A DNA stretch of 64,000 nt. It comes from Candidatus Woykebacteria bacterium (GTDB lineage: Bacteria; Patescibacteriota; Microgenomatia; Woykebacterales; RBG-16-39-9b). Shown in pieces: positions 11,110 through 45,931 of the stretch. How positions within the stretch are numbered: position 1 is the stretch's first letter; each line of letters opens with the position of its first letter. The position numbers and the translations under genes are program-made. A model generated the notes under the pieces. It was not told the DNA's origin. It saw only the letters and a program-made list of their open reading frames with translations, and ran no database searches. The DNA lies in NCBI GenBank assembly GCA_040876345.1, contig JBBDPM010000006.1, positions 328,547 to 392,546 on the forward strand, read 5' to 3'.

Positions 11110-11159
<50 letters not shown>

Positions 11160-11944
11160 GACACTTAACGCGTTAGCTTACGACACCGAACCGTCACCAG
11201 CCCGATATCTAGTGTCCATAGTTTACGGCGTGGACTACACGGGTATCTAATCCGTTTTGCTCCCCACGCTTTCGTGCAACACCGTCATGATCCACCCAGA
11301 TGCCTGCCTTCGCCTTTGGTGTTCCAGTTGATCTCAACGCATTTCACTACTCCACCAACTGTTCCGGCATCCCCTTTGGATATCTAGTCTTGAAGTATCA
11401 CCACCAAGCTGTGGGTTGAGCCCACAGGTTTAAATGGTGACTTTCAAAACCGGCTGCGCACGCTTTACGCCCAGTAAATCCGGGTAACGCTTGGGCCCCA
11501 CGTATCACCGCGGCTGCTGGCACGTGGTTAGCAGGCCCTTATTCTCCTCGACACGACATCGAAGTAAAAGGAGTTTACAACCCGAAGGCCTTCATCCTCC
11601 ACGCGGCGTCGCTGCGTCAGGCTTTCGCCCATTGCGCAAGATTCCCGGTTGCTGCCACCCGTAGGTGTATGGCCCGTGTCTCAGTGCCATTGTGGGAGAT
11701 CATCCTCTCAGACCTCCTACCCGTCGAAGCCTTGGTAGGCCATTACCCCACCAACAAGCTGATAGGACGCGAGCCGCTCCTTTAGCGAGCAGTTATGCTC
11801 TTTGATCTTGCGATCACATGCAGTATTAGCCCACCTTTCGATGGGTTATTCTCCACTAAAGGGTACGTTCTCACGCGTTACTCACCCGTCTGCCACTCCC
11901 GCCCGAAGCGGGTCGTTCGACTTGCATGCCTAAGGCGCGCCGCT

Positions 11945-11976
<32 letters not shown>

Positions 11977-12238
11977 GAAAAAATTTGGCGCTGGCCAAAT
12001 TTCTGAAGACTTGATTGCTCAAATCAGACTACAGATTAATGCTGTAGACATTGTTACTCGAATTGACGTTCGTTCCTTATAAATTTTGAGTTTTCAAAGT
12101 GCACGGTGTTTCCCCTCCAACGAAAAAGAGCCCGCAAATACAAGCTCTTCTTGCGAATCAATGAAATGTGGTACCGAACCTTAAACTTTACATTTCGGCC
12201 TCATTCTAGTTCAAAATCTACCCTTTGTCAACCCTAAC

Positions 12239-21200: not shown

Positions 21201-23169
21201 TAGCAGTGTTATTTGCTAAAACTTGCTTTGGGGTATCGACATTTATATTTCCGTTCGCACTCAAATCCCCAACAGTGGTCTTTAACCAAGCTATTTCTTT
21301 AACTATCACCGTTACGGTTCCCGTATCAACAACTGTTGGATACGAAAAATCAGATTCTGAAGTTGCTTTAACAGTTAAAATATAAGTGCCGGGTGCTTGG
21401 TTAAGAGTAGTGATGGTGAAATTTGTAAGGGAAGACCCCGGGGGGTGAGACACTTTCCTGGGATTCCAAGGATTAGAGTTGTCCGCCACTTTAAAATCAG
21501 CTGGACTGCAAGGATCTGGATCGCAATCTATTACACTCATTAATGCTTTTGACGTAATTGGCCAGCCAACACTCCAGTTTATAGAAATATCAGTACTGTT
21601 GGAACTGTTTATCCCCATGGGAACTGGGCTTGGGGAAACAACATCCAAAGTAACATCTAATTTATTCGTGATACCAAGAAGAATAGAGCTAGAACTTGTC
21701 GAATAAGCAAAGCTGTAAGCAGCCGTCCTACAGTTATCAAGAGGCTGGTTGGGCAAAGTGCAAGTTGGAGCGGGTGCGCCGTTATATGTTTGCGAAACTC
21801 CATCGTTACTACACGGTGCTCCCCCTGCATCATTACAATACCACTTTGAAAGATAAGCCGACCATAAATCTCCACCAGATGGGCCTATGCCAGGATCCAC
21901 AGTAAATTGAGCATCGGAAACACCTTTAGTGTAACCAGCTGTCCCAAAGCTATTTACATTTATCTCAACGGCATTGAAATCGTAAAGTCTTGCAATCAAC
22001 TGAGCAAAACTGTTCGAACCTCCAAAAGCCTCATCGGAATCAAAAACTCCATCAGCGTCTTTATCATTAAAGAATGTCAAAATAAAGTTATCACCAGCAC
22101 CACCACAATTGTGCCAGTTGCTCCAACCAGCCGGGCTCCCAACTGAATCCACGGTTGCATTACGAGCTCGGTACTGAAATTCATAGCGGTGGCCGGCAAC
22201 TCCGTTAAATGTGTAAGGTGATGCCGGCGAACTAGTGGTGTTGAAAAGATCATACCAGCTTCCTCCGTTCATATCTCTAGCTTGCAGCCACCGTTGAGCT
22301 ATCGTAGAATCTGTATCTGAAGCAGAATGAAAAATCCTTACATCATAGTCACCGTTTGATTTACCCACGTATTCTTTTGTACAACTTACCGTTGCTGGCG
22401 AAAGATCAATCCCAAAGAACCACCAGCTGTTTCCAGAGCTCCAAGCAAGTCGGTGTGGAGAAGCACCTGTATCTTTGCCTTCAATACCCCATCCATACCA
22501 ACCATTGGTAAGTCCAGCTGCACTCAAATTTGTGGTGTAGGGAGAGGCGTTGTTAACGGCGAAAGTTCTTGTGGTCGTGATCCCAGTACCAGTATTGTAA
22601 ATTTTTTGGGTTATATTAGTTATGTTTCCGCCACCTGCTGGTGAAGTTAAAGTAACGTTATAAGCAGTTGGGTCGTAATTAAGCCAGTTTCCTGAAACTG
22701 GAGTGTTGTTTCTTGTGTTGGTGGCGGAGGCCGTTGTTGTAAGAGCTGTAGTATCCGTAACCCGGGTGGTACCAGAGTAAGAAACTGAGTCCACCCCACT
22801 ACCCCAAAAATCATGGTACCCAGGCTCCACTACGTGAACCCAAAATCTGTGGACCGATGCCGACATTGGCGTAATCTGACAAGAAGTAACATTAGTGCAG
22901 GTTTTGGTAGGAGTTCCGGTGGTCGTGTCCACCCAAATCTCGATGAGATCGGCTGTTATGGAAGCTGCCGAAGCATCGGTAACAGAGACAGTGTAAGAAG
23001 ACGCCGGTCCTAAGAGAGAGCGAGTAATCCAACCATATCCACCAGCTGCTTGGGCATGAACCTCATTTTTGTTAAAAATCGCCGGATAAGAAAGTAAAAT
23101 AAACACCAGAGTTGTTACAAAGAAAAAACCTATGCAAATTTTTTTGAGATACCCACTAATAAACTTCAT
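18247..23169 (-). CDS. Giant secreted surface protein (1640 aa) with LamG/concanavalin-A-like domain
   Basis: N-terminal signal anchor and Thr/Ser/Asn/Gly-rich composition. LamG_3-like block (VADSTGNGNTGT...GKAQDFSG...WVRVTDSNSLD...TLEAWIKPD). Shares a beta-helix-like module and C-terminal motif with the VWA protein. Confidence 0.8.
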   Translation of the reverse strand: MKFISGYLKKICIGFFFVTTLVFILLSYPAIFNKNEVHAQAAGGYGWITRSLLGPASSYTVSVTDASAASITADLIEIWVDTTTGTPTKTCTNVTSCQITPMSASVHRFWVHVVEPGYHDFWGSGVDSVSYSGTTRVTDTTALTTTASATNTRNNTPVSGNWLNYDPTAYNVTLTSPAGGGNITNITQKIYNTGTGITTTRTFAVNNASPYTTNLSAAGLTNGWYGWGIEGKDTGASPHRLAWSSGNSWWFFGIDLSPATVSCTKEYVGKSNGDYDVRIFHSASDTDSTIAQRWLQARDMNGGSWYDLFNTTSSPASPYTFNGVAGHRYEFQYRARNATVDSVGSPAGWSNWHNCGGAGDNFILTFFNDKDADGVFDSDEAFGGSNSFAQLIARLYDFNAVEINVNSFGTAGYTKGVSDAQFTVDPGIGPSGGDLWSAYLSKWYCNDAGGAPCSNDGVSQTYNGAPAPTCTLPNQPLDNCRTAAYSFAYSTSSSSILLGITNKLDVTLDVVSPSPVPMGINSSNSTDISINWSVGWPITSKALMSVIDCDPDPCSPADFKVADNSNPWNPRKVSHPPGSSLTNFTITTLNQAPGTYILTVKATSESDFSYPTVVDTGTVTVIVKEIAWLKTTVGDLSANGNINVDTPKQVLANNTANSLTAGSDFSRSILHPNSTADSLPPPDHAAVSAGQGYVGYDQSSGNNYIRSYLNFNTSGIPQGSEVLAAEISFDVFNKDIAAGNFDVQIVRKEWSWPGNTLDTNWHLDQQSATTYPGKFLFNTSTLPNPLSGIVVNYGINKNDIVVGGNTKFELKANCQTNTSPPFKDFCSLPSANNYFLIRNIKLTTWWKSDSFSPTSASYESSHGITGQNWTTPIPSPPDGASGGPLSGGIGHSGFYSGSLMRRTYLAFDTTTIEPGFNIRGASVSFKVLDSGVDSNGTNPGIEVGLVRKNWTGSPDVDYHAPPNDYDFADNQPMDGKFNVLDTQGFSDPTGNGNRFSFQVTDLAGINQGGITKWELRSDEPLADSITDYITVQDINLHITLETSADFLVVAKDSINGLVSATDWLVEGYGSINTGFTSDDLFGELWSEFGGKRAKNHPTNGTLPTPTAPANGGVYAYPSVASIKSGNPADEANFTWGSGAVQSGNSTVVLFINGALNIESDLDLGNRKAVFIVKKGISVDGQVSTIDGFFVTNKGFDSGIAQAGGPANWYDTDWQFRKKLTVNYSQVNSTGLLPTDPAVGSHSDFPVYVNLADLGSGFFSNVQSDGGDIVVTSGDGTSKLYRELVSIDAGSNTGELWFRAPSLSTSANTELYIYYGNSAANETNDNATWNSGYSMVLHMNGSGTTVADSTGNGNTGTKRTLTTGPAEIDGLIGKAQDFSGADNTGDWVRVTDSNSLDATSALTLEAWIKPDWLGGWKSVVSKMCGAASPTHHSYTIYAKDNLNKPLSQITTACSGGSENTISGANLQALPLNTWSHVGTRYRHPGELMVMGPSSSSNLCDVRYQNSTANIYSSDKDLYIGGNPTWGQEFVDAKIDEVRVSSVARTIGWIKTGCNNQNSPSSFYTIAPAEGGCVDCSLTVNGGVTAWEGYSLGRDLGGGNVTDPSEIFNFDPAYLYYFARIDPGVDFSLLGEDRGGRLEVAP

Positions 23170-25752: not shown

Positions 25753-26142
25753 TTATATTTCGACAAGGCGGGCAAGTTCGGTAACTGCTGGAATATAAAA
25801 TTTTTTTCCAGAGAGCGCTCTATAAACACTAGTTATAGAAGCAACCATTAAAATCCCAACTACGGGAAGTTTAAAAATACTGGGAATGAGAAAAAATGAA
25901 AGGATGATAAAGAGGATTAAAATAAGCGCTTGCTTTGAATGATAGAGGACAAATTCGGAATTATCCTTACGAAGAAGTATTATTGCTGCACTCGCTAGTG
26001 GCATATAACTTAGAGCTGCTACTAAAGCGTCTTCACCAAAGTACTCCCTGACATCGTGGGAGCCACTTTCTGAACCACCTACGCTTTTATTAAAATTAGA
26101 AGGCACTAGCCTCTGTAAAATCGAAGCTGTATTAACCACCAC
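25753..26142 (-). CDS. DUF4870-like small membrane protein (paralog 1)
   Basis: 129 aa. SY.P..S..ILL.K...EFV.YHSKQAL block, paralogous to the next ORF. Confidence 0.5.
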   Translation of the reverse strand: MVVNTASILQRLVPSNFNKSVGGSESGSHDVREYFGEDALVAALSYMPLASAAIILLRKDNSEFVLYHSKQALILILFIILSFFLIPSIFKLPVVGILMVASITSVYRALSGKKFYIPAVTELARLVEI

Positions 26143-26159
26143 AGTTTTCTCCTGCTATA

Positions 26160-26510
26160 TTAAAGATTTACTTTCTCAGCGAGGTCACCAACCACTGGCA
26201 TTTTAAACCGCTCACCGCTGTAAGCTTTGATAAAACCTACAATCACCGCAATTAGTATAACAAGATCGCCAAGATAAATAAGTGGCCAAAGAAAAGCGAT
26301 CATAACACCGACGATCCAAACGATAACTGAGAAGGCAAAAAGTACCACTCCTTGTCTCGCGTGAAATCTTACGTAGTCTGAATCTTTCTTAACTAACAAA
26401 ATCACTATTGATAGAATCCACAAGTAGCTAACGGCGGCAACTAGATTTTCATCACTTTTTGGAGTACCAGTTGGCACAGGTTGATTAGATTCTTCGGGCA
26501 AGTTTATCAC
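26160..26510 (-). CDS. DUF4870-like small membrane protein (paralog 2)
   Basis: 116 aa, tandem paralog of 25753-26142 (SYLW..SI.ILLVKKDSDYVRFHARQG). Confidence 0.5.
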   Translation of the reverse strand: MINLPEESNQPVPTGTPKSDENLVAAVSYLWILSIVILLVKKDSDYVRFHARQGVVLFAFSVIVWIVGVMIAFLWPLIYLGDLVILIAVIVGFIKAYSGERFKMPVVGDLAEKVNL

Positions 26511-26543: not shown

Positions 26544-27878
26544 TTACTCAAACAGTTTGGTTTGACCTTCTGCTTGAACCTGAACTTTTCTAAAAGCAGG
26601 ACTCTCTCGAATCAGTCGATCCGAAGTGGGCCATATTTTCACAGTGCCAAAAACTCCGTCAAAACCAGGATCAACTGCGATATCTCCCCTTCTCACCCTA
26701 TCAATACCCTCGGCCACTCTCGGGTTTGAGGAGATTTTTGCGATATCGGCAGCGGTAGCTTTTAACAAAACCGCCATTTCATTACTAAAATTGTTAACAA
26801 GACTCGTGTATTCAACCCTAACTCTATCTGAAGCAGTGGATGCGCCTAAAGCTTCGGAAAGTATCTCCAATAATGGTACCAGCATTTTATAGGAGGGTCT
26901 GCTGTCAGGTTTAAAATCCTCCCCTCTATCTTTTTCGGCCAAATCATTAACTCGATGCATTACCCCGACTGTTAATTTTCTCTTGCAAACTGGACAAATA
27001 ACTCCGTATTTATCAGTCTCTTCTGGTGAGTGTTTAACATCGCAGTTTCGGTGACCAGTGAAGTGATACTTACCCTCCTCTGGAAAAAATTCGATGGTAA
27101 GGCTTATTGCTGAACGACTACCAAACAAAGCCTTCGCTTCTGAACGTTCGTCAGTATTCTCTGCTTGCTTTGGGCTTTTTAGAGCTTCCAACAAGCCATC
27201 GTAACTAAAATCTGTGTCAAAAATTGTCAACTCTCTGCCCATTTTTGGAGCAGAATGAGCATCGGAAAAAGAAACAATTGAGCGTTTATCTAAATCCTTA
27301 ATTCTCCAGTTCATGGCTGGGTCGCTGGACAAACCAGTTTCAATAGCATAAATGTAGGCGGATAAATCTCCAAAACACTCTTCAATCGAGTCAAATCCAG
27401 AATTACTTCCGTAAAGTGAGAACCAAGGCGTCCAAGCATGAGCTGGAATTAAAATAGCCTTATCGCTTACGCTCAGAGCAAGCTCCAACAAATCTCTTGC
27501 TGAAAGTCCGATAATTGGCCGCCCATCGGCAACAAGGTTTGCTCGTTTACCTAACAATGAATTAAACTCCTCAACGTCTTTTAAGTCTGGAAAGTAAAGC
27601 AAGCAGTGGATCCTTCTCACCTTACCACCCTGAGAATAAATACAGGAAATTTCGCTGCCAAGAACAAAGTTTGTATCTTTATATTTATAAAGGCCATTTC
27701 CAGATTCCTTTAGCTGCTCTTTAGTTTCGCGAAACCAAACTGGGTGAGTAAAATCAGCTGAGGAAAGTAGATTAATACCTTTATATTTCGCCCATTCAGA
27801 AAGCGTGTCAAAATTTAAATTTTTACTGGTCGCCCTTGCGTAAGCGGAATGAAGATGAAGATCGGCGACAAACTTCAC
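26544..27878 (-). CDS. Endonuclease Q-like PHP-domain nuclease with zinc finger
   Basis: 444 aa. ADLHLHS.Y, LIPAHAWTPWFSLY and SFSDAHSAP blocks parallel archaeal EndoQ. CxxC...CPVCKRK zinc ribbon. Confidence 0.7.
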   Translation of the reverse strand: MKFVADLHLHSAYARATSKNLNFDTLSEWAKYKGINLLSSADFTHPVWFRETKEQLKESGNGLYKYKDTNFVLGSEISCIYSQGGKVRRIHCLLYFPDLKDVEEFNSLLGKRANLVADGRPIIGLSARDLLELALSVSDKAILIPAHAWTPWFSLYGSNSGFDSIEECFGDLSAYIYAIETGLSSDPAMNWRIKDLDKRSIVSFSDAHSAPKMGRELTIFDTDFSYDGLLEALKSPKQAENTDERSEAKALFGSRSAISLTIEFFPEEGKYHFTGHRNCDVKHSPEETDKYGVICPVCKRKLTVGVMHRVNDLAEKDRGEDFKPDSRPSYKMLVPLLEILSEALGASTASDRVRVEYTSLVNNFSNEMAVLLKATAADIAKISSNPRVAEGIDRVRRGDIAVDPGFDGVFGTVKIWPTSDRLIRESPAFRKVQVQAEGQTKLFE

Positions 27879-27880
27879 AG

Positions 27881-29641
27881 TTAAACTTTAACCTTTCTCT
27901 GCTGCTCGTACATTTTAATGAGTTCTTTCACAGTTGTAGCATCTTCTGGTCTTTTGTCTGCAGAGCGGAAAGACACTAAACGAGGAAAACGTAGCGCATA
28001 ACCTGGCTCCTCTTCAACCTTACCTGCGGTATGCATTGGACTTCGCGTAATTTCATCTGCAAAGACTTCTATAACCAACTTTGGTTCAACCCAAACCGAT
28101 GGTTCGATAATCGAATTTACTCTGGCAGGTTTTCTTGTAACTTTTAACTTGTCAGCCAGCTGGCGGATTTTTCTCCATTCATCATCTGTCAGTCCAGTAC
28201 CTACTCTGCTAACAGACGGGAACTCATCTTTGTCTGGATCGTAGAGACCAACAAGCAAACCACCCACCCCAAAAGCCGTTCTTTTACCAGTTCCTGTATA
28301 AATACCCAGTAACACACAATCTATGGTATCGGACAGTTCCCCAGCTGCCATTCGTTTAAATTTGATCCAATGATACCCTCTACCACCAGCTTTATAAGGA
28401 GAGTCGAGCTTTTTAACCATCACTCCTTCAAGACCAGCAGCAACCTGTTCTTCAAACATTTTTTTGAGTTCTTCCGCGCTTTGGAGGACACTTTCTTTTG
28501 CAACTAACAAGGTTCCTTCTTTATCGATAATTTTCTCAAGCTTTTCCCGCCTCTCTTTATAAGTCAGCTTGGTTATATCTTTGCCGTTTAGATATAAAAG
28601 ATCAAAAGCAAAAAGTTTGAGCGGTAGCTTCAGCGCAAACTCTGCCACAGAGTATTTTCGCCGCCTTTTTGTGGTCTCTTGAAATGGTAAGAATTCTTCC
28701 GTCAAAGGATTATAAGCAATTGCTTCTCCCTCAAAAATCATGCTGTCGGCTTTTATTTCTTCCAGGCAAGCCTTTACTAAGTCTGGGAAAGCGTTGGTAA
28801 AATCCTCCAAATTCCTCGAAAAAATCCTTACTTCTGTTGCTGTTTTTGACTTTTGAAGATGTACTTGGCATCGAAACCCATCATATTTTGGCTCGGCTGC
28901 AAACTCATTTCCCACCCTCTTTATAACTTCCTCTGCATTTGGAAGTCTCTCTGCAAGAGCCGGTCGTACTGGCTTTCCAACCTGTAATTCAATCTTCTCA
29001 ACGCCCTTTAACCCCTTCTGCCAGTAGGTTTTAGCAACGAAACCAAGGTCCGAAGTTTTATTGTACGCTTCTTCAAGGACAGGACGATTGGATTTATCCC
29101 CAGACTTAGAAACTGATAAAGCATCTAAAACTGTTGGGTCACCGATACCAAGTCGTAATTTTGCCAAAGTAATCCTCATTAGATGTTTAGCACTCTTTGG
29201 GTCTAGTTGCTTAAGCATATCCGCCAAAGTGCTTATCTTCTTCTCCATACTCCCTTCTCCAGATGAGGTCGCTATTCTGTATAGACCTTCATGAACCTCA
29301 GATACAGTCAATTTTGAATTTTGGATTGTTAATTCTAAACTTAAGTGTTCCGCCGCGATTCCATGATCGCCAGTCTTACTGATCAACTTACGGACTTCGT
29401 CTCGGGGCTTGTCATACGCTTTGGAAATAGCCAAATCCGCCAACTTATCCGCCATGCCAATTTCGATCGGCTCAAAGAATGGAGCCACCCGCCCTTGAAG
29501 GAGATAAGCAACTTTGTCGATCTCATCAGACGATACTTTTTTCAACATCTCTGAGAGTATTTGTGTGAGTTCTATACGGCTTGATATATTTTCTAGTTTT
29601 TCGAAGTAAGTAGAAATCTCTGAAAATTTCATAACGGTCAC
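27881..29641 (-). CDS. lig: ATP-dependent DNA ligase
   Basis: 586 aa. Adenylation motif I EPKYDGFRCQV, motif III FAFDLLYLNG and motif V MVKK. Has an N-terminal DNA-binding domain. Confidence 0.85.
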   Translation of the reverse strand: MTVMKFSEISTYFEKLENISSRIELTQILSEMLKKVSSDEIDKVAYLLQGRVAPFFEPIEIGMADKLADLAISKAYDKPRDEVRKLISKTGDHGIAAEHLSLELTIQNSKLTVSEVHEGLYRIATSSGEGSMEKKISTLADMLKQLDPKSAKHLMRITLAKLRLGIGDPTVLDALSVSKSGDKSNRPVLEEAYNKTSDLGFVAKTYWQKGLKGVEKIELQVGKPVRPALAERLPNAEEVIKRVGNEFAAEPKYDGFRCQVHLQKSKTATEVRIFSRNLEDFTNAFPDLVKACLEEIKADSMIFEGEAIAYNPLTEEFLPFQETTKRRRKYSVAEFALKLPLKLFAFDLLYLNGKDITKLTYKERREKLEKIIDKEGTLLVAKESVLQSAEELKKMFEEQVAAGLEGVMVKKLDSPYKAGGRGYHWIKFKRMAAGELSDTIDCVLLGIYTGTGKRTAFGVGGLLVGLYDPDKDEFPSVSRVGTGLTDDEWRKIRQLADKLKVTRKPARVNSIIEPSVWVEPKLVIEVFADEITRSPMHTAGKVEEEPGYALRFPRLVSFRSADKRPEDATTVKELIKMYEQQRKVKV

Positions 29642-30687
29642 CTTAACACGTAAATGGCAGATTTAGTCTTGCCTTTCTTTCGAACTAGCCCTTTTTTCAT
29701 CAAAGTTTTTAAATCCCGCAATATTGTATCATCCGATACCATCGGCAACAAACTCCGCCATTCTTTATTAGAAACTGCTCTGTACTCTTGCATATATTCG
29801 ACAAGTTTTAATTGTCGATCGTTCAGCGGAAGTTGACCCATTTTACTCTTCAGCCGCAGATCGACGGACAGCCTTCGCACCTTATCTTTGATACGACCAA
29901 GTTCGATGGATAATCCCTCGGTAAAGTATTCCACCCAATTTGTTAAATCTCTATCCTCTATTTTCTTTGATTGGTTGGAAACGATTTGCAAAACGTTGTA
30001 ATAGCGCCCCGCATCTTTATCAAAATACTCTTCAATCGAGAAAAATTTTTTGATGTCGTAGCCTTCTTTAAAAAGAACAAGTGTGGCCAAGGCTCTCGCG
30101 ACCCTACCGTTACCATCCACAAAAGGGTGAATTGCCGCCAAAATATAGTGCGTGATACCGGCTTTTATAACTGGATGAACCTCCTCTACGGAAGAGCGGT
30201 TTAACCAGAGGAAGAAACTTCGCACTAAATCGGCTATTTCTTTCGGCTTTGGGGGTAAGTATGAGGTTTCCCCGGTAGCTGAGTTTGCCACGCGAACGCG
30301 AATATCTCGATATTTTCCAGATTGTGCCTCTGTCAGGATTTTTTTAGTGGTTAGATAGTGAATTTCTAGGAGAACTTTTTCGGTAGTAGGCTCATTTTTT
30401 ACTTTTTCAAGGTATTTTAGAACTTCGCGGTAATTTAAAACCTCTTGGATGTCCCGCTGCCTCGCCGAGATTTTTTTGCCTTCAAGGACATCCTCCACTT
30501 CTTTTTGTTCCAAAGGATTTCCCTCAATGTGAGTGCCGTGGTGAACAGTGCGAATAATTGCCTCTTCCCTGAATTTTGCTTCGTAGGAAGGAACTAGAGG
30601 GGCGTTTTCAATAATTTCTTTGGCAGCTTCTATTTTGCCGATGTTATTCAAAATCTTATTCGTGATTTTAAACTTAGGATTATACAT
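29638..30687 (-). CDS. fic: Fic family protein (putative AMPylase) with C-terminal wHTH
   Basis: 349 aa with Fic motif HPFVDGNGRVARAL. Confidence 0.85.
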   Translation of the reverse strand: MYNPKFKITNKILNNIGKIEAAKEIIENAPLVPSYEAKFREEAIIRTVHHGTHIEGNPLEQKEVEDVLEGKKISARQRDIQEVLNYREVLKYLEKVKNEPTTEKVLLEIHYLTTKKILTEAQSGKYRDIRVRVANSATGETSYLPPKPKEIADLVRSFFLWLNRSSVEEVHPVIKAGITHYILAAIHPFVDGNGRVARALATLVLFKEGYDIKKFFSIEEYFDKDAGRYYNVLQIVSNQSKKIEDRDLTNWVEYFTEGLSIELGRIKDKVRRLSVDLRLKSKMGQLPLNDRQLKLVEYMQEYRAVSNKEWRSLLPMVSDDTILRDLKTLMKKGLVRKKGKTKSAIYVLR

Positions 30688-30814
30688 AATTTAGAATATT
30701 TTTAGTCCACAAAGTGGTCACAGCATTCGAGAGTACCCAAATTACTTGAGCGATTAGCGAATGAATTTGGTTACGGAGAATGCTATTGGTGATTTTAAAT
30801 TTAGGAGTAAACAT
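30688..30814 (-). pseudogene. Duplicated 5-prime fragment of fic (44-codon remnant ORF)
   Basis: Encodes MFTPKFKITNSILRN..., matching the Fic N-terminus MYNPKFKITNKILNN. The same TGATTTTAAA(T/C)TTAGGA nucleotide block lies about 130 nt apart. The remnant ends by overlapping the fic start. Confidence 0.35.
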
Positions 30815-30904
30815 TGGAAAATTATATCGAAGCGATTTCGATGTAATTCTCGCTTCGCTCTAATTATCGCATAATTACCGCAGAAAAGCAAGATTTTTAG
30901 GCGA

Positions 30905-30950
30905 AGAGAAGGGCAGCCTCCGCCAAAGTTAGCTGCCCTTCTCTCTCCTC
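30905..30950 (-). terminator. GC-rich hairpin downstream of the island operon
   Basis: GAGAAGGGCAGC-CTCCGCCAAAGTTA-GCTGCCCTTCTC. No U-tract. Near-identical loop to the hairpin at 32755-32800. Confidence 0.4.
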
Positions 30951-30981
30951 ATTGTTCCGTCACTCGACCGCCATCATGCGC

Positions 30982-31482
30982 TCAGGCGCAGACGGTGTTG
31001 GTGGTCAGGTTGTAGTAGATCCGGGAGCTCTCGCCTTCCGTGTAGTGTTCCCAGATCATGTGTACGCTCTTCCCACGGTCGCAGATGAAGCCGTGCCAAC
31101 CAGGGAAAGACACGTTGTTGTGAGGCGCGACGGAGATGTAGTCACATGGCCCGCTGTAGCCGCAACCGACCGTGCCGTAAAGACCACCGTAGACCCACTC
31201 ACCTGTCCAATTGAACGGCTGATTCCACCTGAACCGGTAGTGGAAGGAGACGATGGTGGCGAAGTCCACGTTCGGATCCGGCGCGCCCGGTTCGAAAACG
31301 ATGTCGGTCGACGCCCGGATTCCCAGAGTATGGTCGGACGGGTCCGGCGCGTAGTACTGCCGCCAAGCGTACGTCCAGGTAGTCGCATGGTCCATGTGAC
31401 CAGCGTCGGCCTGAGACGTCAGCACCGCCATACCTCCGAGCATCGTGGCGATGATCGTCGCTGTGAGGATCAACCGCTTCAT
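30982..31482 (-). CDS. Secreted hypothetical protein (island gene A)
   Basis: Start at internal Met with GGGAGG Shine-Dalgarno. Signal peptide MKRLILTATIIATMLGGMAVLTSQA. ATGA overlap with gene B. Confidence 0.55.
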   Translation of the reverse strand: MKRLILTATIIATMLGGMAVLTSQADAGHMDHATTWTYAWRQYYAPDPSDHTLGIRASTDIVFEPGAPDPNVDFATIVSFHYRFRWNQPFNWTGEWVYGGLYGTVGCGYSGPCDYISVAPHNNVSFPGWHGFICDRGKSVHMIWEHYTEGESSRIYYNLTTNTVCA

Positions 31483-31907
31483 CTCGGAACCTCCCGGATA
31501 AGGTTGCCTTCGCAGTCGTACACGACGAACTTGTCCGGCTCGAACTGGACGTCGGCGCACTGAAGGTCGTCGTCGCCGGCGAAGATGCCCACCTGTTCGC
31601 CGTTTGAGTTGAGGATCGGTCCGGCTTCCTGACCCTCCGGAGGCGGTTGGCCTTGCGTCCCTGGCATCGGCGCACTACCAGCACCACCATTCTCATCGAG
31701 GAGCCACTGGGCAAAGCCCACTTCCTCTTCGCAGCTGGTGAAGCCTGGCGACGGCGTCATGTCGCACGGCGCGTCGTAGGGATCGTGGCCCTCGTTAACC
31801 TCTGGGCCTGGTGGCCACCATTCAGGGAGCTGGGGTACGTTGCAGGTCGCTGCAACACTGAACACCAGCAGCCCGAGGGCAGTGATAACGATGATGATCT
31901 GCTTCAT
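31479..31907 (-). CDS. Secreted hypothetical protein (island gene B)
   Basis: AGGGAG Shine-Dalgarno. Signal peptide MKQIIIVITALGLLVFSVAA. Cys-containing mature region. Confidence 0.55.
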   Translation of the reverse strand: MKQIIIVITALGLLVFSVAATCNVPQLPEWWPPGPEVNEGHDPYDAPCDMTPSPGFTSCEEEVGFAQWLLDENGGAGSAPMPGTQGQPPPEGQEAGPILNSNGEQVGIFAGDDDLQCADVQFEPDKFVVYDCEGNLIREVPR

Positions 31908-31929
31908 TGTGAAGTCTCCCTCTTTCAGG

Positions 31930-32517
31930 TTATCGGCAGATACCGCCCGACGCAATACGGCACGTGAAGCCTAACCACGTCGAATCGGCTGGTGACGGCA
32001 CGAGGCAGGCGATGTCCGCGCCGTCAAACGTGATGGTGCGCTGTTCGAACGTTAGCTCTCCGGTAGGCGGCGCGGTCAGATGACTGACCATGAATGCCTC
32101 TGGCCCCAGACCCACCGACACGAAAGCCCAGTCCTCACGATCTCCCTCGACGCGGAGTGCATCGAAGAACTCCTCAGTTACGTCGAGAAGCCCCACACCC
32201 TCCATGTCCTCGGAAGGCACGCGCACGTAGTTGGATATACGCGCCGCAACAGCAGTCGGTGGTGTCTGACAGACCCACGTCGGATGACTGAGTTGGAGCT
32301 GAGCGAGAACGCTGGCAAACGGCTGGGCCATGCCCGCCGGAGCGAACGGTTCGGACAGCGCGGCGAGTTCGGCTATCGCTGCTTCGTTTGGAGTAGGAGC
32401 AGCGACTTGTGGTGCCGTAGCCGTCGTGTCTGCGCCGCCACCACCATTGCAGGCCGTGGTAATTACCACGCCCACGAGTAGTGAGACGACGAGCCACAAG
32501 GCTACTTTCTGCTTCAT
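31930..32517 (-). CDS. Putative lipoprotein (island gene C)
   Basis: GGGAGG Shine-Dalgarno. Signal MKQKVALWLVVSLLVGVVITTAC with lipobox-like Cys. Ala/Pro-rich linker. Confidence 0.55.
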   Translation of the reverse strand: MKQKVALWLVVSLLVGVVITTACNGGGGADTTATAPQVAAPTPNEAAIAELAALSEPFAPAGMAQPFASVLAQLQLSHPTWVCQTPPTAVAARISNYVRVPSEDMEGVGLLDVTEEFFDALRVEGDREDWAFVSVGLGPEAFMVSHLTAPPTGELTFEQRTITFDGADIACLVPSPADSTWLGFTCRIASGGICR

Positions 32518-32754
32518 GTAAAGCCTCCCTCTCGAATTCTCGACCGCGGTCGGTCGAGATCGTGTGATGTTATCCGGTGGCCTTTTCCATAGGCTCCCTC
32601 CCTTTAGACGGCTGAATCAGCCGCCACAAAACCTGGCCGATGTGCGCTTCGACATGTCAGTTGTTAATGTTCATCCAATACCTCCCTCCAGTTACCCCGA
32701 TTATAGCACCATGGGTCAAAAATAGTTGTTTTTACTGTCTATTATTAAAGGGAG

Positions 32755-32800
32755 AGGGCAGACTTCCGCCAAAGTCGTCTGCCCTCTCCCTTCTCCCTCG
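32755..32800 (-). terminator. GC-rich hairpin between the two island operons
   Basis: GGGAGAGGGCAGAC-TTCCGCCAAAGTC-GTCTGCCCTCTCCC, same loop core as 30905-30950. Confidence 0.4.
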
Positions 32801-32808
32801 CTACCGCC

Positions 32809-32955
32809 TTAGTCTGGGGTGATGAAAACGCCGACCGGAGTGGACGTTTCGCCCTGCTCCGATTCATCGTTTTCAAATTGGGCGCCGATTGCACCCATAA
32901 CAACCACCACGGCTATGAGTACCGCCACCAAGCTGAGTAGTACCGTCGTTCGCAT
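32809..32955 (-). CDS. Small membrane protein (island gene D)
   Basis: About 48 aa from the internal Met, with a single TM helix. Weak call. Confidence 0.3.
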   Translation of the reverse strand: MRTTVLLSLVAVLIAVVVVMGAIGAQFENDESEQGETSTPVGVFITPD

Positions 32956-32966
32956 TGTTGCCCTCC

Positions 32967-34103
32967 TTACGGCCTCACCCACCACGAGCACAAGTTGTAC
33001 TTGAAGTGGAGGGTGATCCGGGCCGTGATCGTCCGGAAGCTGAACCCGATGCCAAAGGCCTCGATCCGATACTTGAACCGAGTCCAGGCTTCAGTCTCCC
33101 CAACCGCAACCGCACCTCCTCTGTACCAAGCGATAGGATTGGTGGAGTACTGTGGGTCTTGATCCACCTCCCAACCCCACGCTGCATCAGCGGTCGCTAT
33201 CGCTGCTGGAGGCTCCCACACGATGTTGGAGTACGTCGTGATAACGAACCGCTGTTTCAGGTAGAAGGTCCCATTGTTGAGACCAACTGGGTTGTACCAC
33301 CGGTATGTCTTCTGGCAGTACAGAGACCGAAAAGCCTGCGGAACAGGCTGCAGATTTGAGCTCTCCAGACGGAGAGCTTCTACCTCAGCCTCTGTCAACG
33401 GCTCCTCGCCTTGACTCGCATCCATCTGCCTGTACTCGTAGGAAACGATTCTCCCGCCGGCATCGGTAATGTAGTAGCAGTCTCGCCACTTCTCACCAGA
33501 CTCGATCTCTGAGTCGACCGTTTCCGCTACACCCAGATCGTAGATCTTTCCACCACAATACTCAATCTGCTCACAGCGGTGGCCGAACTGGAAGACGATG
33601 AGTCCGATGTCAGCTGCCGCCACGATACCATCGGGAGGGCCTGAGTCCCAGGGGTCACCTCCTGGTGGTGGAGCTGAGCGGTCGAAGTCCGGCCAATACC
33701 CAGGGGACCCTTCGTGGGTACCGAACCGAGCCACCACCCTGGATATGTCTGCTGCTGACACCGTGTTGTCCCGAGGCGGTGTGTCAAAGAAATCCGACGC
33801 GTTGATCGGATCCCTTCGGCCTCCAAGAGCGGGGTTGGGACCAAGCTCCTCTTCGTTGGTGCATCCGTCATTGTCAATGTCGAGATCAGGCAGGAGCTTC
33901 TCGATCGGGACCGTCTGGCTCCCTAGGTCCTCCTCCTGGACTGGCGGTGTCTCGGTCGGTGTCGGCGATTGACCGTTCGCCTGTCCTTGACCTTGAAAGG
34001 TAAGGGCAAAGGCGATTACCGCCGTAATAAAAGCCGCCAGACGAATTCCCCCACTAAAGGCCTTGAAGGGCCCTGCCACCAGACTTAGGATTGTGCCTTG
34101 CAT
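32967..34103 (-). CDS. Secreted protein with calcium-binding D-x-D-x-D-G repeat and dockerin-like segments (island gene E)
   Basis: GGAGG Shine-Dalgarno 5 nt before the internal Met MQGTIL, then a hydrophobic signal. DIDNDGCTNEEE motif. Repeated D.TVSAADISRVVARFG and DGIVAAADIGLIVFQFG resemble type I dockerin helices. Confidence 0.6.
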   Translation of the reverse strand: MQGTILSLVAGPFKAFSGGIRLAAFITAVIAFALTFQGQGQANGQSPTPTETPPVQEEDLGSQTVPIEKLLPDLDIDNDGCTNEEELGPNPALGGRRDPINASDFFDTPPRDNTVSAADISRVVARFGTHEGSPGYWPDFDRSAPPPGGDPWDSGPPDGIVAAADIGLIVFQFGHRCEQIEYCGGKIYDLGVAETVDSEIESGEKWRDCYYITDAGGRIVSYEYRQMDASQGEEPLTEAEVEALRLESSNLQPVPQAFRSLYCQKTYRWYNPVGLNNGTFYLKQRFVITTYSNIVWEPPAAIATADAAWGWEVDQDPQYSTNPIAWYRGGAVAVGETEAWTRFKYRIEAFGIGFSFRTITARITLHFKYNLCSWWVRP

Positions 34104-34520
34104 GGCAACCTCCTTTGTCGAGTGGATTTTCGGATATTCAGTTGTAAAATTGATCCTCCCCTTATTTATTCTCCCGAGCAACCAGCTCAACTCAGGGCAA
34201 GCCAACCCTTGCCAAGGGCATTTTGAGGAGGCTCAAAATAACACGAAACACCCTATTTGTCAACCTTGTAGTAATTTATTACGAGTCTTACAGTTAAAAT
34301 AATAATAATTTTTCACACTCTTATAGTTTTGATAATTTGTAACTCTATAAGTCTTGCATTAACACTAACTATCTTGTAAGGGCTCTATCCAATTTAGCAG
34401 GAGTTCCTGACTGTCAAAACCTATGGTTTAGACTTGGCAGTTGGGCCTGCCCGCGATGCTAGCGCACGGAGTTAGCAGTAGGGTATTGCAAGTGCTAATA
34501 TTTTATGTTATACATTCCCT

Positions 34521-43762: not shown

Positions 43763-45931
43763 TTAATGGGGCTTTTTCATACTCCCCCAATTCTTACCAA
43801 CCTTCACCTCAACAACCAGGGGGACTGAAAGTGGAAACGAGTTCTCCATAATTTCTTTAACGATCGGGGCAATTTTTTTCAATTCATTTTCCGGAACTTC
43901 GAATACTAACTCATCATGAACCTGCAAAATCATCTTTGTCTTGCTATTTGTTACTCGCAACTTGTTACTGATCTCAACCATCGCGGTTTTGATAATGTCA
44001 GCGGCTGTTCCTTGAATTGGGGAATTGACAGCGATCCGCTCACCCGCCTTACGTACTGTTTGGTTACTGCTACGAAGCTCCAGTACATACCTCTTAAAGC
44101 CCCCCAAAGTCTCTACGTACCCTTTTTCGTACGCAACACGTAGAATACTACCTGCCCAAGCTTCCACAGCTGGGAAACGGGCAAAATAGCGCTCAATTAT
44201 CTCTTTGGCTTCGGAGGGGTGGATTTTCAGTTGCTGGGCAAGACCAAAAGGCGAAATTCCGTACATAATGCCGAAGTTGATGATTTTGGCAATTCTTCGA
44301 TCTTCGCGTGTAACTTCCTCTGGTTTTTTTCCTAAAACCGCGACTGCCGCCTCAGTATGTATATCCTCGCCTTGCTCAAATATCCTTTTAAGCTCCTTAT
44401 CACCGCTTATATGCGCCATCACCCGAATCTCAATCTGGTTATAATCGGCAGACAGTAATATTGATCCTTTGGGCGCGATAAAAGCAGATCGCACTTTTTC
44501 ACCCCAATCACCTCTGGCTGGAATATTTTGGAGATTTGGATTTTTAGATGATAAGCGCCCAGTCCGTGTGGTATCAGCATGATAAGTCGTGTGAATGCGA
44601 CCGTCCGAACCTATTTGGGCTGGGAGGGCGTCGATATAGGTTGATTTCAATTTAAAAAGCTCCCTATATTTCATAATTAATTCGATGGCTGGGTGCGCAC
44701 CAATCAAGGTCGACAAAGTAGCCTCATCGGTAGACTTATGAGTTTTGATACGGGTCGATCGTTCCGGTATAAGATTAAGTTCGTCATAAAGCACACCGGA
44801 GAGTTGTTTTGGAGAATTTAAATTAAATTCGTGACCAACTTTCTTATAAATCTCTTTTTCCAACTTTGAAAGTTCACCGTTAACCTCGTTAGACAAATCC
44901 TCAAGTTTTGCCCTGTCCATCAAAACCCCTGTCTCCTCCATTTTCCGAAGAACTTTGTCCAACTCATCATTCGTGCCCGTCTTCTCTTCCTTATCTTTGT
45001 CGAAAAGCCCAACTTGATTATCGTCCTGGATTTCGGGCTTCGAGTTTCGAGTTTTATTATCCATCCCCGGCAATTTGTTTATTAGTGATCTAAACTCAAG
45101 CTCTTCAAAAAGCTTTAAAGTCTCGTTTTTATCGTAGTCATGCAAGACACATTTTTTTAAGTCTAATTCTATCGGAGTATTCACATCAATTGTGGCTAGC
45201 TTTTTAGACATAACCGCCGACTCTGCATCGGCCGCAAGAAGTTTACGTAATTTCTCCGGAACCTTGTCTAGATTTTTGTAAATCTCTTCAACTGTGCCGA
45301 ATTCTTTGATCAACTTTGTTGCACCCACGTCGCCTATCCCCCGAACTCCTGGAATATTGTCTGATTGATCCCCGGCTAAAGCCTTGATATCAATAATCTT
45401 TTCTGGCTCCACGCCGTATTTCTCTTTGATAATTTTTTCATCGTAATAGACTACATCTGAAAAACTTTTTCCAGGCGTGTAAATCTTCACTCTGGGACGA
45501 GCAAGCTGAAAGCTATCCCTGTCACCAGTAACGATAATAACTTCAAGGTCTGGCGCTCCATTTTCGGTGGCTTGCTTAACAAGAGTGCCGATTATGTCAT
45601 CGGCTTCGTAACCGGAAAGCTCAAAAACTGGAATATTTAGAACGCTGAGAACCTCTTTAACTCGAGGCATTTGCTCATGCATCTCCTCGGGAGCAGCCGC
45701 TCTCTGGGCTTTATATCCAGTGTATTCAGTGTGGCGAAAAGTGGCATCGGCAGTATCAAAAGTACAGGCGATATATTCTGGCTTAATATCGGCAATTGCG
45801 CGCAGCAGCATGCTTGTGAAACCAAAAACAGCGTTTACAAGTTCGCCTTTCGAAGTAGTTAAAGGCGGCATCGCGTGATATGCCCGGTGAAAAACTGCGT
45901 GGCCATCAATAAGGACTAGCTTCTTAGACAT
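43763..45931 (-). CDS. polA: DNA polymerase I (5-prime nuclease plus polymerase; 3-prime-5-prime exonuclease domain apparently absent)
   Basis: 722 aa. N-terminal 5-prime-3-prime exonuclease (LIDGHAVFHRAYHA, GDQSDNIPGV). Pol A motifs (RRIAKIINFGIMYG, QVHDELVFE). Confidence 0.85.
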   Translation of the reverse strand: MSKKLVLIDGHAVFHRAYHAMPPLTTSKGELVNAVFGFTSMLLRAIADIKPEYIACTFDTADATFRHTEYTGYKAQRAAAPEEMHEQMPRVKEVLSVLNIPVFELSGYEADDIIGTLVKQATENGAPDLEVIIVTGDRDSFQLARPRVKIYTPGKSFSDVVYYDEKIIKEKYGVEPEKIIDIKALAGDQSDNIPGVRGIGDVGATKLIKEFGTVEEIYKNLDKVPEKLRKLLAADAESAVMSKKLATIDVNTPIELDLKKCVLHDYDKNETLKLFEELEFRSLINKLPGMDNKTRNSKPEIQDDNQVGLFDKDKEEKTGTNDELDKVLRKMEETGVLMDRAKLEDLSNEVNGELSKLEKEIYKKVGHEFNLNSPKQLSGVLYDELNLIPERSTRIKTHKSTDEATLSTLIGAHPAIELIMKYRELFKLKSTYIDALPAQIGSDGRIHTTYHADTTRTGRLSSKNPNLQNIPARGDWGEKVRSAFIAPKGSILLSADYNQIEIRVMAHISGDKELKRIFEQGEDIHTEAAVAVLGKKPEEVTREDRRIAKIINFGIMYGISPFGLAQQLKIHPSEAKEIIERYFARFPAVEAWAGSILRVAYEKGYVETLGGFKRYVLELRSSNQTVRKAGERIAVNSPIQGTAADIIKTAMVEISNKLRVTNSKTKMILQVHDELVFEVPENELKKIAPIVKEIMENSFPLSVPLVVEVKVGKNWGSMKKPH

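What the first reader, a model, noticed from the sequence alone, without database searches (positions are those of the whole stretch)
26544..29641. Archaeal-type repair pair: EndoQ-like PHP nuclease adjacent to ATP-dependent DNA ligase
The 444-aa protein matches endonuclease Q blocks (DLHLHS, AHAWTPWFSLY, SDAHSAP, Zn ribbon). EndoQ is an enzyme family characterised in Thermococcales that nicks 5-prime of deaminated or abasic bases, and is rare in bacteria.

It ends 3 nt before the start of an ATP-dependent ligase with KYDGFR adenylation motif, suggesting a coupled incise-and-seal pathway. Two Fpg paralogs and a reduced PolA lie in the same window, pointing to an unusual base-damage repair repertoire.
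Basis: partly seen in the sequence, partly recalled or inferred. Interest (0 to 1): 0.55.

Follow-up and report, generated by a model that had tools for sequence, protein, structure and literature searches.

The report
Bacterial EndoQ nuclease beside ATP-dependent ligase
This is a real but already-annotated gene pair in an uncultured Candidatus Woykebacteria bacterium: an endonuclease Q family DNA-damage nuclease lies just downstream of an archaeal-looking DNA ligase, but the nuclease family is common in bacteria and the pairing looks like inherited gene order, not a dedicated two-enzyme machine.

Summary
Both ORFs exist as described. The 444-aa protein (26544-27878, minus strand) belongs to the endonuclease Q family. 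It matches PfuEndoQ over its full length (E=2e-49), and its AlphaFold model matches 5ZB8/7K30 (E=5e-36, TM 0.78/0.87), about 30 orders of magnitude better than any other PHP protein. All six catalytic metal ligands plus R120, H208 and W152 are conserved.

The 586-aa protein is a three-domain Lig1-type ATP-dependent ligase, closest to the Sulfolobus ligase.

NCBI already gives the identical proteins these names. "Rare in bacteria" is outdated. I found at least 588 GTDB species hits across many phyla and 965 clusters at 50% identity.

Ligase-EndoQ proximity occurs in one Microgenomates-type clade only (20 of 21 assessable loci, against 0 of 26 elsewhere). There it sits inside a longer conserved gene block and is usually interrupted by unrelated genes. 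Elsewhere EndoQ is most often fused to a UvrD-type helicase.

A conserved C-terminal QxxLF motif suggests tethering to the beta-clamp. The likely pathway is an EndoQ nick, PolA 5'-3' exonuclease nick translation, then ligation. This is a new member of a known kind, of modest interest.

The parts
26544..27878 (-). EndoQ-family endonuclease gene: 444 aa, GTG start, stop codon at 26544-26546
   Evidence: phmmer against PDB PfuEndoQ 5zb8 gives E=2.1e-49 over residues 5-415. The AF2 model (pLDDT 83.7) matches 5zb8 by Foldseek at E=5.5e-36, TM 0.78/0.87. The identical protein is named 'endonuclease Q family protein' by NCBI.
27084..27878 (-). PHP catalytic domain, about aa 1-265. Metal ligands are H8, H10, E76, H91, H147 and D206. 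R120, H208, W152 and the pocket residues T150, E180, G182 and L183 are also present.
   Evidence: Residue-by-residue mapping onto PfuEndoQ H8/H10/E76/H84/H139/D193/R114/H195/W144. Residue roles come from PMC5961232. These residues are invariant, or at least 90% conserved for H8, in the 34-sequence alignment.
26877..27083 (-). Zn-binding domain, about aa 266-334. The ligands H276, C279, C295 and C298 are encoded at 26985-27053.
   Evidence: Aligned to Pfu C249/C252/C268/C271. The pattern GH-R-x-C...C-P-x-C is found in nearly all bacterial-type homologs examined.
26625..26876 (-). C-terminal helical DNA-binding domain, about aa 335-418
   Evidence: Aligned to PfuEndoQ residues 304-382. The AF2 model is helical here with pLDDT 83-95.
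26550..26564 (-). C-terminal QTKLF (aa 439-443), a candidate beta-clamp-binding motif at the end of a disordered linker
   Evidence: Q439, L442 and F443 are at least 90% conserved although the preceding linker is hypervariable. A strict Qxx[LM]F lies in the last 20 aa of 53 sequences in the EndoQ cluster from the fetched loci. pLDDT is below 50 for residues 420-440. Archaeal-context homologs carry PIP-like tails instead. The motif was already noted for bacterial EndoQs in PMC4858679.
27881..29641 (-). Lig1-type ATP-dependent DNA ligase: DBD, adenylation and OB domains, with motif I KYDGFR. The annotated ATG start is at 29632.
   Evidence: Pfam DNA_ligase_A_N, _M and _C at E=2e-37, 2e-55 and 5e-19. 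TIGR00574 scores 447 bits against a cutoff of 218. PDB 2hiv matches at E=5e-128. NCBI names it 'ATP-dependent DNA ligase'.
29638..30687 (-). Fic-domain protein (HPFVDGNGR) with a C-terminal wHTH. It is the first gene of the co-directional run and ends at the ligase start.
   Evidence: Pfam Fic at E=1e-19. Fic lies upstream of the ligase in 18 of 22 ligase-bearing loci.
25753..26510 (-). Two small DUF4870 membrane proteins immediately downstream of EndoQ. They belong to the conserved gene block and have no evident repair role.
   Evidence: Pfam DUF4870. A DUF4870 gene lies next to EndoQ in 15 loci.
43763..45931 (-). PolA, 722 aa, with 5'-3' exonuclease and polymerase domains and no 3'-5' exonuclease domain. 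It is the inferred lesion-removal and resynthesis step between the EndoQ nick and ligation.
   Evidence: Pfam 5_3_exonuc_N, 5_3_exonuc and DNA_pol_A, with no hit between aa 269 and 340. Its role in this pathway is inferred.

Best explanation
The 444-aa gene encodes a bacterial-type endonuclease Q. It has a PHP-fold two-metal nuclease domain, a His-Cys3 zinc-binding domain and a helical DNA-binding domain.

By homology with the Pyrococcus, Thermococcus, Methanosarcina and Bacillus pumilus enzymes, it should flip a deaminated base (uracil or hypoxanthine) or an abasic residue into a pocket next to the metal site. It should then cut the phosphodiester bond immediately 5' of the lesion, leaving a 3'-OH and a lesion-bearing 5'-phosphate.

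Its disordered tail ends in QTKLF, a beta-clamp-binding-type motif. The enzyme is therefore probably recruited or stimulated by the sliding clamp, as archaeal EndoQ is by PCNA through its C-terminal PIP box.

The nick cannot usefully be sealed directly. The most likely downstream steps are nick translation by the 5'-3' exonuclease and polymerase activities of PolA (encoded 16 kb away), possibly helped by a UvrD-type helicase. The upstream-encoded Lig1-type ATP-dependent ligase would then seal the final nick.

In this genome the ligase and EndoQ genes are almost certainly co-transcribed (2-nt spacer). However, their neighbourhood is best read as ancestral gene order of one Microgenomates-type clade, within a longer block: recF ... 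Fic - ligase - [variable genes] - EndoQ - DUF4870 - phosphoribosyltransferase - pth - acylphosphatase. It is not a self-contained two-enzyme module.

Shown here: family membership, fold, conservation of catalytic residues, motif conservation and the distribution of the synteny. Inferred: substrate range, clamp binding, and the PolA and ligase steps.
For: **Family and fold**
- Full-length phmmer match to PfuEndoQ, E=2e-49.
- AF2 model with pTM 0.85. Foldseek gives 5zb8 at E=5.5e-36 and the dU-DNA complex 7k30 at E=1e-31, against E>=1.7e-6 for other PHP proteins.

**Catalytic residues**
- H8, H10, E76, H91, H147, D206, R120, H208 and W152 are all present. They are invariant, or at least 90% conserved for H8, in 34 homologs.
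- Mutagenesis evidence for their roles is in PMC5961232.

**Clamp motif**
- Q439, L442 and F443 are at least 90% conserved, and 53 homologs carry a strict motif.
- Three Micrarchaeota-labelled homologs carry PIP-like tails instead: QRGLGEYL, QKTLGEF and QSSLGDF. Two of them (L042, L049) were confirmed as archaeal contigs by neighbouring RFC large subunit, archaeal LonB, Orc1/Cdc6 and CDC48 genes.
- PCNA binding and stimulation through the C-terminal PIP box has been shown experimentally, and a beta-clamp motif was noted in bacterial homologs (PMC4858679).

**Pathway model**
- The Pol, flap or 5'-exonuclease, then ligase model is from PMC4357722. The PolA here has a 5'-3' exonuclease domain.

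**Synteny**
- A ligase lies within 4 kb upstream on the same strand in 20/21 assessable in-clade loci and in 0/26 out-of-clade loci. Direct abutment occurs only in L001-L003 and L020, and 15 of 22 loci have intervening ORFs, some on the opposite strand.
- The flanking genes Fic, PRTase, pth and acylphosphatase are co-conserved.
- Among the 150 best cluster representatives, 116 are longer than 800 aa and 104 of those carry a Walker A motif after the EndoQ domain. Two examples were confirmed as UvrD-helicase fusions.
Against: - There is no biochemical evidence for any CPR EndoQ.
- The protein scores 180.9 bits on TIGR00375, below its 326.6-bit equivalog cutoff. It is a divergent subfamily, about 30% identical to PfuEndoQ.
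- Two pocket positions differ (Pfu L168 is T181 here, and N191 is F204), and the first zinc ligand is His rather than Cys. Substrate range could therefore differ.
- Clamp binding rests on a short motif only.
- Retention of ligase proximity in 20/21 clade members, together with the 2-nt junction here, could reflect selection for co-expression. That would favour a tighter functional link than I assign.
- I could not check whether this genome also has NAD-dependent LigA, UDG, EndoV or a UvrD helicase.
Confidence: 0.7

Rival explanations
1. This is a dedicated incise-and-seal (or incise, process, seal) operon. In Microgenomates-type bacteria the Lig1-type ligase and EndoQ would be selected to be co-expressed and would act as a specialised repair module.
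For: - A 2-nt spacer implies co-transcription and possible translational coupling.
- The same abutment occurs in two other Woykebacteria loci at only 64% EndoQ identity.
- A ligase lies within 4 kb upstream on the same strand in 20/21 assessable clade members.
- Ligase is the last step of the published EndoQ pathway model.
Against: - Direct sealing of an EndoQ nick regenerates the damaged strand, so the pair alone is not a pathway.
- Proximity is absent in 26/26 assessable loci outside the clade, including other CPR classes.
- 15 of 22 linked loci have unrelated genes between the two, sometimes on the opposite strand. Examples are a glycosyltransferase-like gene, a transporter-like gene, an aminotransferase and a decarboxylase.
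- Functionally unrelated neighbours (pth, PRTase, acylphosphatase, Fic) are conserved to a similar degree.
- The family's recurrent fusion partner is a UvrD helicase, not a ligase.
- The ligase is more conserved than EndoQ (75% against 64% identity to the L002 orthologs). That fits a housekeeping role.
Confidence: 0.2
2. The 444-aa protein is a PHP-family phosphoesterase of another subfamily (histidinol phosphatase, Pol X PHP, RNase AM or a TrpH-like enzyme) and not a lesion endonuclease.
For: - The local Pfam copy reports only a sub-threshold PHP_C hit, 18.3 bits against a 21.3-bit cutoff.
- The TIGR00375 score is below its trusted cutoff.
Against: - The alignment and structural match to EndoQ are full-length and include the Zn-binding and helical domains that other PHP proteins lack.
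- Other PHP folds score about 30 orders of magnitude worse and cover only about 220-280 columns.
- The EndoQ-specific residues R120, H208 and W152 are conserved.
- A precomputed PF27218 (MJ0043_C) hit is on record for this protein.
Confidence: 0.02
3. The pair is a recent horizontal acquisition from archaea, an 'archaeal repair cassette' dropped into a CPR genome.
For: - The ligase's closest solved relatives are crenarchaeal and euryarchaeal ligases.
- EndoQ was first described in archaea.
- A GC-rich island lies immediately upstream of Fic.
Against: - GC content across 26-30 kb is 0.41-0.42, the same as the genome background. The GC-rich island starts only beyond Fic, at about 30.7 kb.
- Both genes have hundreds of CPR orthologs at 60-75% identity.
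- They occupy the same block across Woyke-, Curtiss-, Davies-, Levy-, Gottesman- and Shapirobacteria.
- This EndoQ belongs to the bacterial His-Cys3, QxxLF-tailed subfamily, only about 30% identical to PfuEndoQ.
Confidence: 0.03

Closest known systems
Pyrococcus furiosus / Thermococcus kodakarensis endonuclease Q (PDB 5ZB8, 7K30-7K33)
   Same: - Same three-domain architecture and fold (TM 0.78/0.87).
- All six metal ligands, R114/H195 equivalents and W144 equivalent are present.
- Both have a clamp-interaction motif at the extreme C-terminus.
   Different: - About 30% identity.
- The first zinc ligand is His, not Cys.
- Pocket positions differ: L168 is T and N191 is F.
- There is a 15-aa low-confidence insertion at residues 237-251.
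- The tail is a bacterial beta-clamp-type QxxLF instead of a PIP box (QRTLLQYI).
- The host is a mesophilic CPR bacterium.
Bacterial EndoQ homologs (Bacillus pumilus EndoQ, characterised; B. subtilis and Desulfovibrio homologs)
   Same: - Bacterial members of the same family.
- The B. pumilus enzyme nicks 5' of dU, dI, dX and AP sites.
- A beta-clamp-binding consensus was reported at the C-terminus of bacterial homologs.
   Different: - I could not obtain the B. pumilus sequence or paper, so identity and subfamily placement relative to it are untested.
- Desulfovibrio-type homologs are about 1050-aa fusions to a UvrD-like helicase, whereas the window protein is stand-alone.
Archaeal/eukaryotic Lig1-type ATP-dependent DNA ligases (S. 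solfataricus 2HIV, P. furiosus 2CFM, human LIG1)
   Same: - DBD, adenylation and OB-fold architecture.
- KxDGxR motif I.
- Full-length alignment at E=5e-128 to 2HIV.
   Different: - Encoded in a bacterium.
- I saw no recognisable PIP or QxxLF motif on reading the sequence (not systematically tested).
- Whether it is this organism's only ligase is unknown.
Nick-initiated alternative excision repair (EndoV, UVDE, Mth212 ExoIII-type dU endonuclease)
   Same: The logic is the same: a lesion-specific nick without a glycosylase step, followed by strand displacement or 5'-exonuclease action, resynthesis and ligation.
   Different: The folds are unrelated. EndoQ cuts immediately 5' of the lesion, whereas EndoV cuts the second bond 3' of it.

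Membership tests
Endonuclease Q (EndoQ) | Full-length sequence homology to characterised EndoQ | tested here: met
   phmmer against PfuEndoQ gives E=2.1e-49, aligning residues 5-415 to 5-382.
Endonuclease Q (EndoQ) | Three-domain fold: PHP barrel, Zn-binding domain and C-terminal helical domain | tested here: met
   The AF2 model (pLDDT 83.7, pTM 0.85) matches 5zb8 at E=5.5e-36 with TM 0.78/0.87, and 7k30 at E=1e-31. Other PHP proteins match only the PHP domain, at E>=1.7e-6.
Endonuclease Q (EndoQ) | Two-metal site ligands (Pfu H8, H10, E76, H84, H139, D193) plus the essential R114 and H195 | tested here: met
   H8, H10, E76, H91, H147, D206, R120 and H208 are all present. They are invariant, or at least 90% conserved for H8, across 34 homologs.
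Endonuclease Q (EndoQ) | C4 zinc-binding site (Pfu C249, C252, C268, C271) | tested here: inconclusive
   Positions 2-4 are Cys, but position 1 is His276. This His-Cys3 pattern is the rule in the bacterial-type subfamily. It is a plausible zinc site, but zinc binding is untested.
Endonuclease Q (EndoQ) | Lesion-base pocket (Pfu H139, T142, E167, L168, G169, L170, N191, D193) | tested here: inconclusive
   Six of eight positions are identical. L168 is T181 and N191 is F204 here. In Pfu these two positions contribute main-chain atoms, so the effect on specificity is unknown.
Endonuclease Q (EndoQ) | NCBIfam TIGR00375 trusted cutoff (hypothetical equivalog) | tested here: not met
   The score is 180.9 bits against a 326.6-bit cutoff. 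The protein belongs to the family but not to the narrow equivalog set. NCBI accordingly names it an 'endonuclease Q family protein'.
Endonuclease Q (EndoQ) | Nicking immediately 5' of dU, dI, dX or AP sites | not testable with these tools
   This needs a biochemical assay.
Endonuclease Q (EndoQ) | C-terminal sliding-clamp interaction motif | tested here: met
   QTKLF lies at residues 439-443 of 444. Q, L and F are at least 90% conserved. The motif type follows the host's domain of life. Binding itself is untested.
Lig1-type ATP-dependent DNA ligase | DBD, nucleotidyltransferase and OB domains, motif I KxDGxR, and the family HMM cutoff | tested here: met
   All three Pfam domains score above their cutoffs. 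TIGR00574 scores 447.5 bits against a 217.8-bit cutoff. KYDGFR is present. PDB 2hiv matches at E=5e-128.
Conserved ligase-EndoQ operon (functional gene pair) | Adjacency recurring across independent lineages | tested here: not met
   Linked loci fall in a single clade of the EndoQ neighbour-joining tree. Counts are 20/21 in the clade and 0/26 outside it, and direct abutment occurs in only 4 of 22 linked loci.

The most novel reading that the evidence does not exclude
In the Microgenomates-type CPR clade, the block Fic, Lig1-type ligase and EndoQ could be a selected functional unit. The archaeal-type ATP-dependent ligase might even be the cell's principal ligase, with NAD-dependent LigA lost. 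It would work with a beta-clamp-tethered EndoQ in a glycosylase-independent, nick-initiated repair route resembling the archaeal PCNA-EndoQ pathway. The conserved upstream Fic AMP-transferase would possibly regulate it.
Probability: 0.1. Interest if true: 0.5.

Novelty: new member of a known kind. Interest (0 to 1): 0.25.

Why it matters
EndoQ is still described in the literature as an archaeal enzyme found in "some limited groups" of bacteria. The data here show it is widespread in uncultivated bacterial phyla, including many CPR lineages with very small genomes.

That suggests glycosylase-independent, nick-initiated removal of deaminated bases is a mainstream bacterial strategy. The enzyme usually occurs either as a UvrD-helicase fusion or as a stand-alone form with a candidate clamp-binding tail.

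For this particular locus the practical result is a correction. The pair is real and probably co-transcribed, but it is already annotated, it is not rare, and it is not good evidence for a special two-enzyme pathway.

Tried and rejected
- **Local Pfam scan of the 444-aa protein.** It gave only a sub-threshold PHP_C hit. The relevant model, PF27218 (MJ0043_C), appears only in precomputed annotations. Pfam alone would have been misleading.
- **Promoter and terminator scan of 23.8-31.2 kb.** Counts matched shuffled expectation: 13 promoter-like sites against 14.0 expected, and 10 terminator-like sites against 6.9 expected. It gives no usable operon boundaries.
- **Literature searches.** "Endonuclease Q" with "Patescibacteria" returned nothing. 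"ATP-dependent DNA ligase" with "Candidate Phyla Radiation" and "DNA ligase" with "Microgenomates" returned nothing relevant.
- **B. pumilus EndoQ paper (PMID 28095753).** It is not held, so the published family 1/2/3 classification could not be applied.
- **First Walker-A regular expression.** It was mis-specified and returned 0. I corrected it, which found 104 of 116.
- **Recent horizontal transfer of the pair.** I considered and rejected this on composition and on clade-wide synteny.
- **Presence of NAD-dependent LigA, UDG, EndoV, UvrD or DnaN in this genome.** I could not test it.


Full report
**Context**

The window comes from a bacterium of the Candidate Phyla Radiation. It carries bacterial 16S, 23S and 5S rRNA genes, with a group I intron in the 23S. 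The 444-aa protein is identical to a protein of a Candidatus Woykebacteria MAG (GCA_040903525.1, contig JBBDVF010000008.1).

**Observation**

NCBI calls the ligase from the ATG at 29632, giving 583 aa.

On the coding strand the run is:
- Fic (30687-29638)
- ligase (29641-27881)
- a 2-nt spacer
- EndoQ (27878-26544)
- two DUF4870 genes
- a phosphoribosyltransferase
- a PaaX-like gene

This order is supported. The two Fpg paralogs and a PolA that lacks the 3'-5' exonuclease domain but keeps the 5'-3' exonuclease are also confirmed.

**What the 444-aa protein is**

- It aligns end to end with PfuEndoQ, E=2.1e-49.
- An AlphaFold2 model built on 34 homologs (pLDDT 83.7, pTM 0.85) matches the EndoQ crystal structures 5ZB8 (E=5.5e-36, TM 0.78/0.87) and 7K30. 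The next PHP proteins reach only E~1e-6 and match the PHP domain alone.
- The six metal ligands, and the R114, H195 and W144 equivalents shown by mutagenesis to matter in PfuEndoQ (PMC5961232), are all present. They are invariant, or at least 90% conserved for H8, in the homolog alignment.

Differences from the archaeal enzyme:
- The first zinc ligand is His276 rather than Cys. This is a subfamily-wide trait.
- Two pocket positions differ: T181 and F204.
- There is a disordered insertion at residues 237-251.
- The TIGR00375 score is below the equivalog cutoff, 180.9 against 326.6 bits.

It is therefore a family member but a divergent bacterial-type one. NCBI already names the identical protein "endonuclease Q family protein".

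**C-terminal tail**

After a hypervariable, low-confidence linker, the protein ends in QTKLFE. Q, L and F are at least 90% conserved in the alignment. A strict Qxx[LM]F lies in the last 20 residues of 53 sequences in the EndoQ cluster from the fetched loci.

Three Micrarchaeota-labelled homologs nest within the bacterial-type subfamily in the neighbour-joining tree, and they end in PIP-like sequences instead (QRGLGEYL, QKTLGEF, QSSLGDF). Two of them (L042, L049) lie on contigs I confirmed as archaeal, with neighbouring RFC large subunit, archaeal LonB, Orc1/Cdc6 and CDC48 genes. The tail type therefore follows the host's clamp type, which supports a real clamp-binding function.

This is not new in principle. 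Shiraishi et al. 2016 showed PCNA binding and stimulation through the archaeal PIP box, and they remarked on beta-clamp motifs in bacterial homologs (PMC4858679).

**The ligase**

It is a three-domain Lig1-type enzyme. Its closest solved relative is the S. solfataricus ligase, E=5e-128. Orthologs at 60-75% identity are abundant across CPR. "Archaeal-type" is a fair description of the sequence.

**Distribution**

- The protein search saturated at 8000 hits.
Hits span CPR classes, Chloroflexota, Omnitrophota, WOR-3, Aminicenantes, Planctomycetota, Desulfovibrio-type lineages, Elusimicrobia, Fibrobacterota, Armatimonadota and DPANN archaea.
- The exhaustive search of 50%-identity representatives gave 965 clusters at E<=1e-30.
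- Of the best 150 representatives, 116 are longer than 800 aa, and 104 of those carry a Walker A motif after the EndoQ domain. Two examples were confirmed as UvrD-helicase fusions.

So EndoQ is not rare in bacteria. Its most recurrent physical partner is a UvrD-type helicase, not a ligase.

**The pairing**

A ligase homolog lies upstream on the same strand in 23 of 84 fetched loci. In a neighbour-joining tree, all the linked EndoQs fall in one Microgenomates-type clade: Woyke-, Curtiss-, Davies-, Levy-, Gottesman- and Shapirobacteria, plus mislabelled MAGs.

- Within the clade, 20 of 21 loci with enough flank have the ligase within 4 kb.
- Outside the clade, 0 of 26 do.
- Direct abutment occurs only in three Woykebacteria loci and L020.
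- 15 of 22 linked loci have one to five ORFs between the two genes, sometimes on the opposite strand.
- The same loci also conserve Fic upstream and DUF4870, a phosphoribosyltransferase, a gene that reads as peptidyl-tRNA hydrolase and an acylphosphatase downstream. A gene that reads as recF lies further upstream. The recF and pth identities are from my reading of the sequences, not from an HMM search.

The simplest reading is ancestral gene order in a slowly rearranging lineage. In this genome the two genes happen to be contiguous and co-transcribed.

**Mechanism**

EndoQ leaves the lesion on the 5' side of the nick, so ligation alone would be futile. The published model places strand-displacement synthesis and flap or 5'-exonuclease removal before ligation (PMC4357722). 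In this organism the PolA with an intact 5'-3' exonuclease domain is the obvious candidate for that step, and the ATP-dependent ligase would finish the repair. These steps are inferred, not shown.

**Verdict**

The EndoQ and ligase identifications are right. "Rare in bacteria" is wrong, and "coupled incise-and-seal pathway" is weakly supported.

This is a new member of a known family, and it is already annotated as such. The modestly new points are:
- the breadth of EndoQ in uncultivated bacteria;
- the His-Cys3 zinc site;
- the switch between beta-clamp-type and PIP-type tails;
- the clade-specific synteny with a Lig1-type ligase.

Noticed in passing
window 4630-11981 (- strand): The rRNA operon holds 16S (10580-11981), tRNA-Ile(GAT), tRNA-Ala, 23S (5756-8871) with a group I intron at 6640-6954, and 5S (4630-4746). 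A LAGLIDADG_1 homing-endonuclease ORF (5252-5755) abuts the 3' end of the 23S match, and about 1.1 kb separates the 16S from tRNA-Ile.
   Followed up: partly
window 60481-60555 (-) and 56305-56531 (+): There is a tRNA-Ile with anticodon TAT, which is unusual in bacteria. There are also two tandem tRNA-Met(CAT) genes, and only the second reached the Rfam gathering score.
   Followed up: no
window ~30700-34200: A GC-rich island (GC 0.51-0.58 against about 0.40 background) lies immediately upstream of Fic. It holds four minus-strand ORFs of 158-412 aa with no Pfam hits. A 378-aa gene in the same position in related Woykebacteria locus L002 may be a counterpart, but I did not compare the sequences.
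   Followed up: partly
window 29638-30687 (-); loci L002-L053: A Fic-domain protein with a canonical HPFxDGNGR motif and a C-terminal wHTH ends at the ligase start. It lies upstream of the ligase on the same strand in 18 of 22 ligase-bearing loci. This Fic-ligase neighbourhood is about as well conserved as ligase-EndoQ, and its significance is unknown.
   Followed up: partly
L076 7001-10177, L079 6995-10138, L082 1733-4894; P0250 and many representatives: In other phyla EndoQ is mostly an N-terminal domain fused to a UvrD-type helicase, about 1000-1200 aa in total. 116 of the 150 best 50%-identity representatives are longer than 800 aa, and about half of those keep a Qxx[LM]F at the domain junction.
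   Followed up: partly
L042 6639-7952, L049 6983-8242, L083 501-1781: Three Micrarchaeota-labelled (DPANN) loci carry bacterial-type (His-Cys3) EndoQ genes with PIP-box-like C-termini. The neighbours of L042 and L049 are RFC large subunit, LonB, Orc1/Cdc6 and CDC48, confirming those two as archaeal; L083's neighbours were not checked. This suggests inter-domain transfer followed by a swap of the tail motif.
   Followed up: partly
P0187 (ligase homolog), P0243 (EndoQ homolog), L042 11942-14665: Intein domains interrupt a CPR ligase ortholog (933 aa) and an archaeal LonB. One EndoQ representative (831 aa) has a borderline Intein_splicing hit, 35.1 bits against a 35.8-bit cutoff.
   Followed up: no
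window 46183-46944 (+) and 57569-58441 (+): There are two tyrosine recombinase (Phage_integrase) genes. The first sits in a locally GC-rich stretch at 46-48 kb, GC 0.525.
   Followed up: no
window 18247-23169 (-): A 1640-aa protein gene lies in the same co-directional run as EndoQ. The precomputed annotation of the identical locus L001 lists Laminin_G_3 and a weak DUF2341 hit for it.
   Followed up: no
L005 (DASVHF010000038.1), L007/L008/L011 etc.: Several GTDB records carrying close homologs have implausible taxon labels, such as 'Nanoarchaeia archaeon' and 'uncultured Gammaproteobacteria'. Their EndoQ identity (up to 66%), their QxxLF tails and, where enough flank is present, their gene order are those of Microgenomates-type CPR bacteria. 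These are probably mislabelled MAGs.
   Followed up: partly
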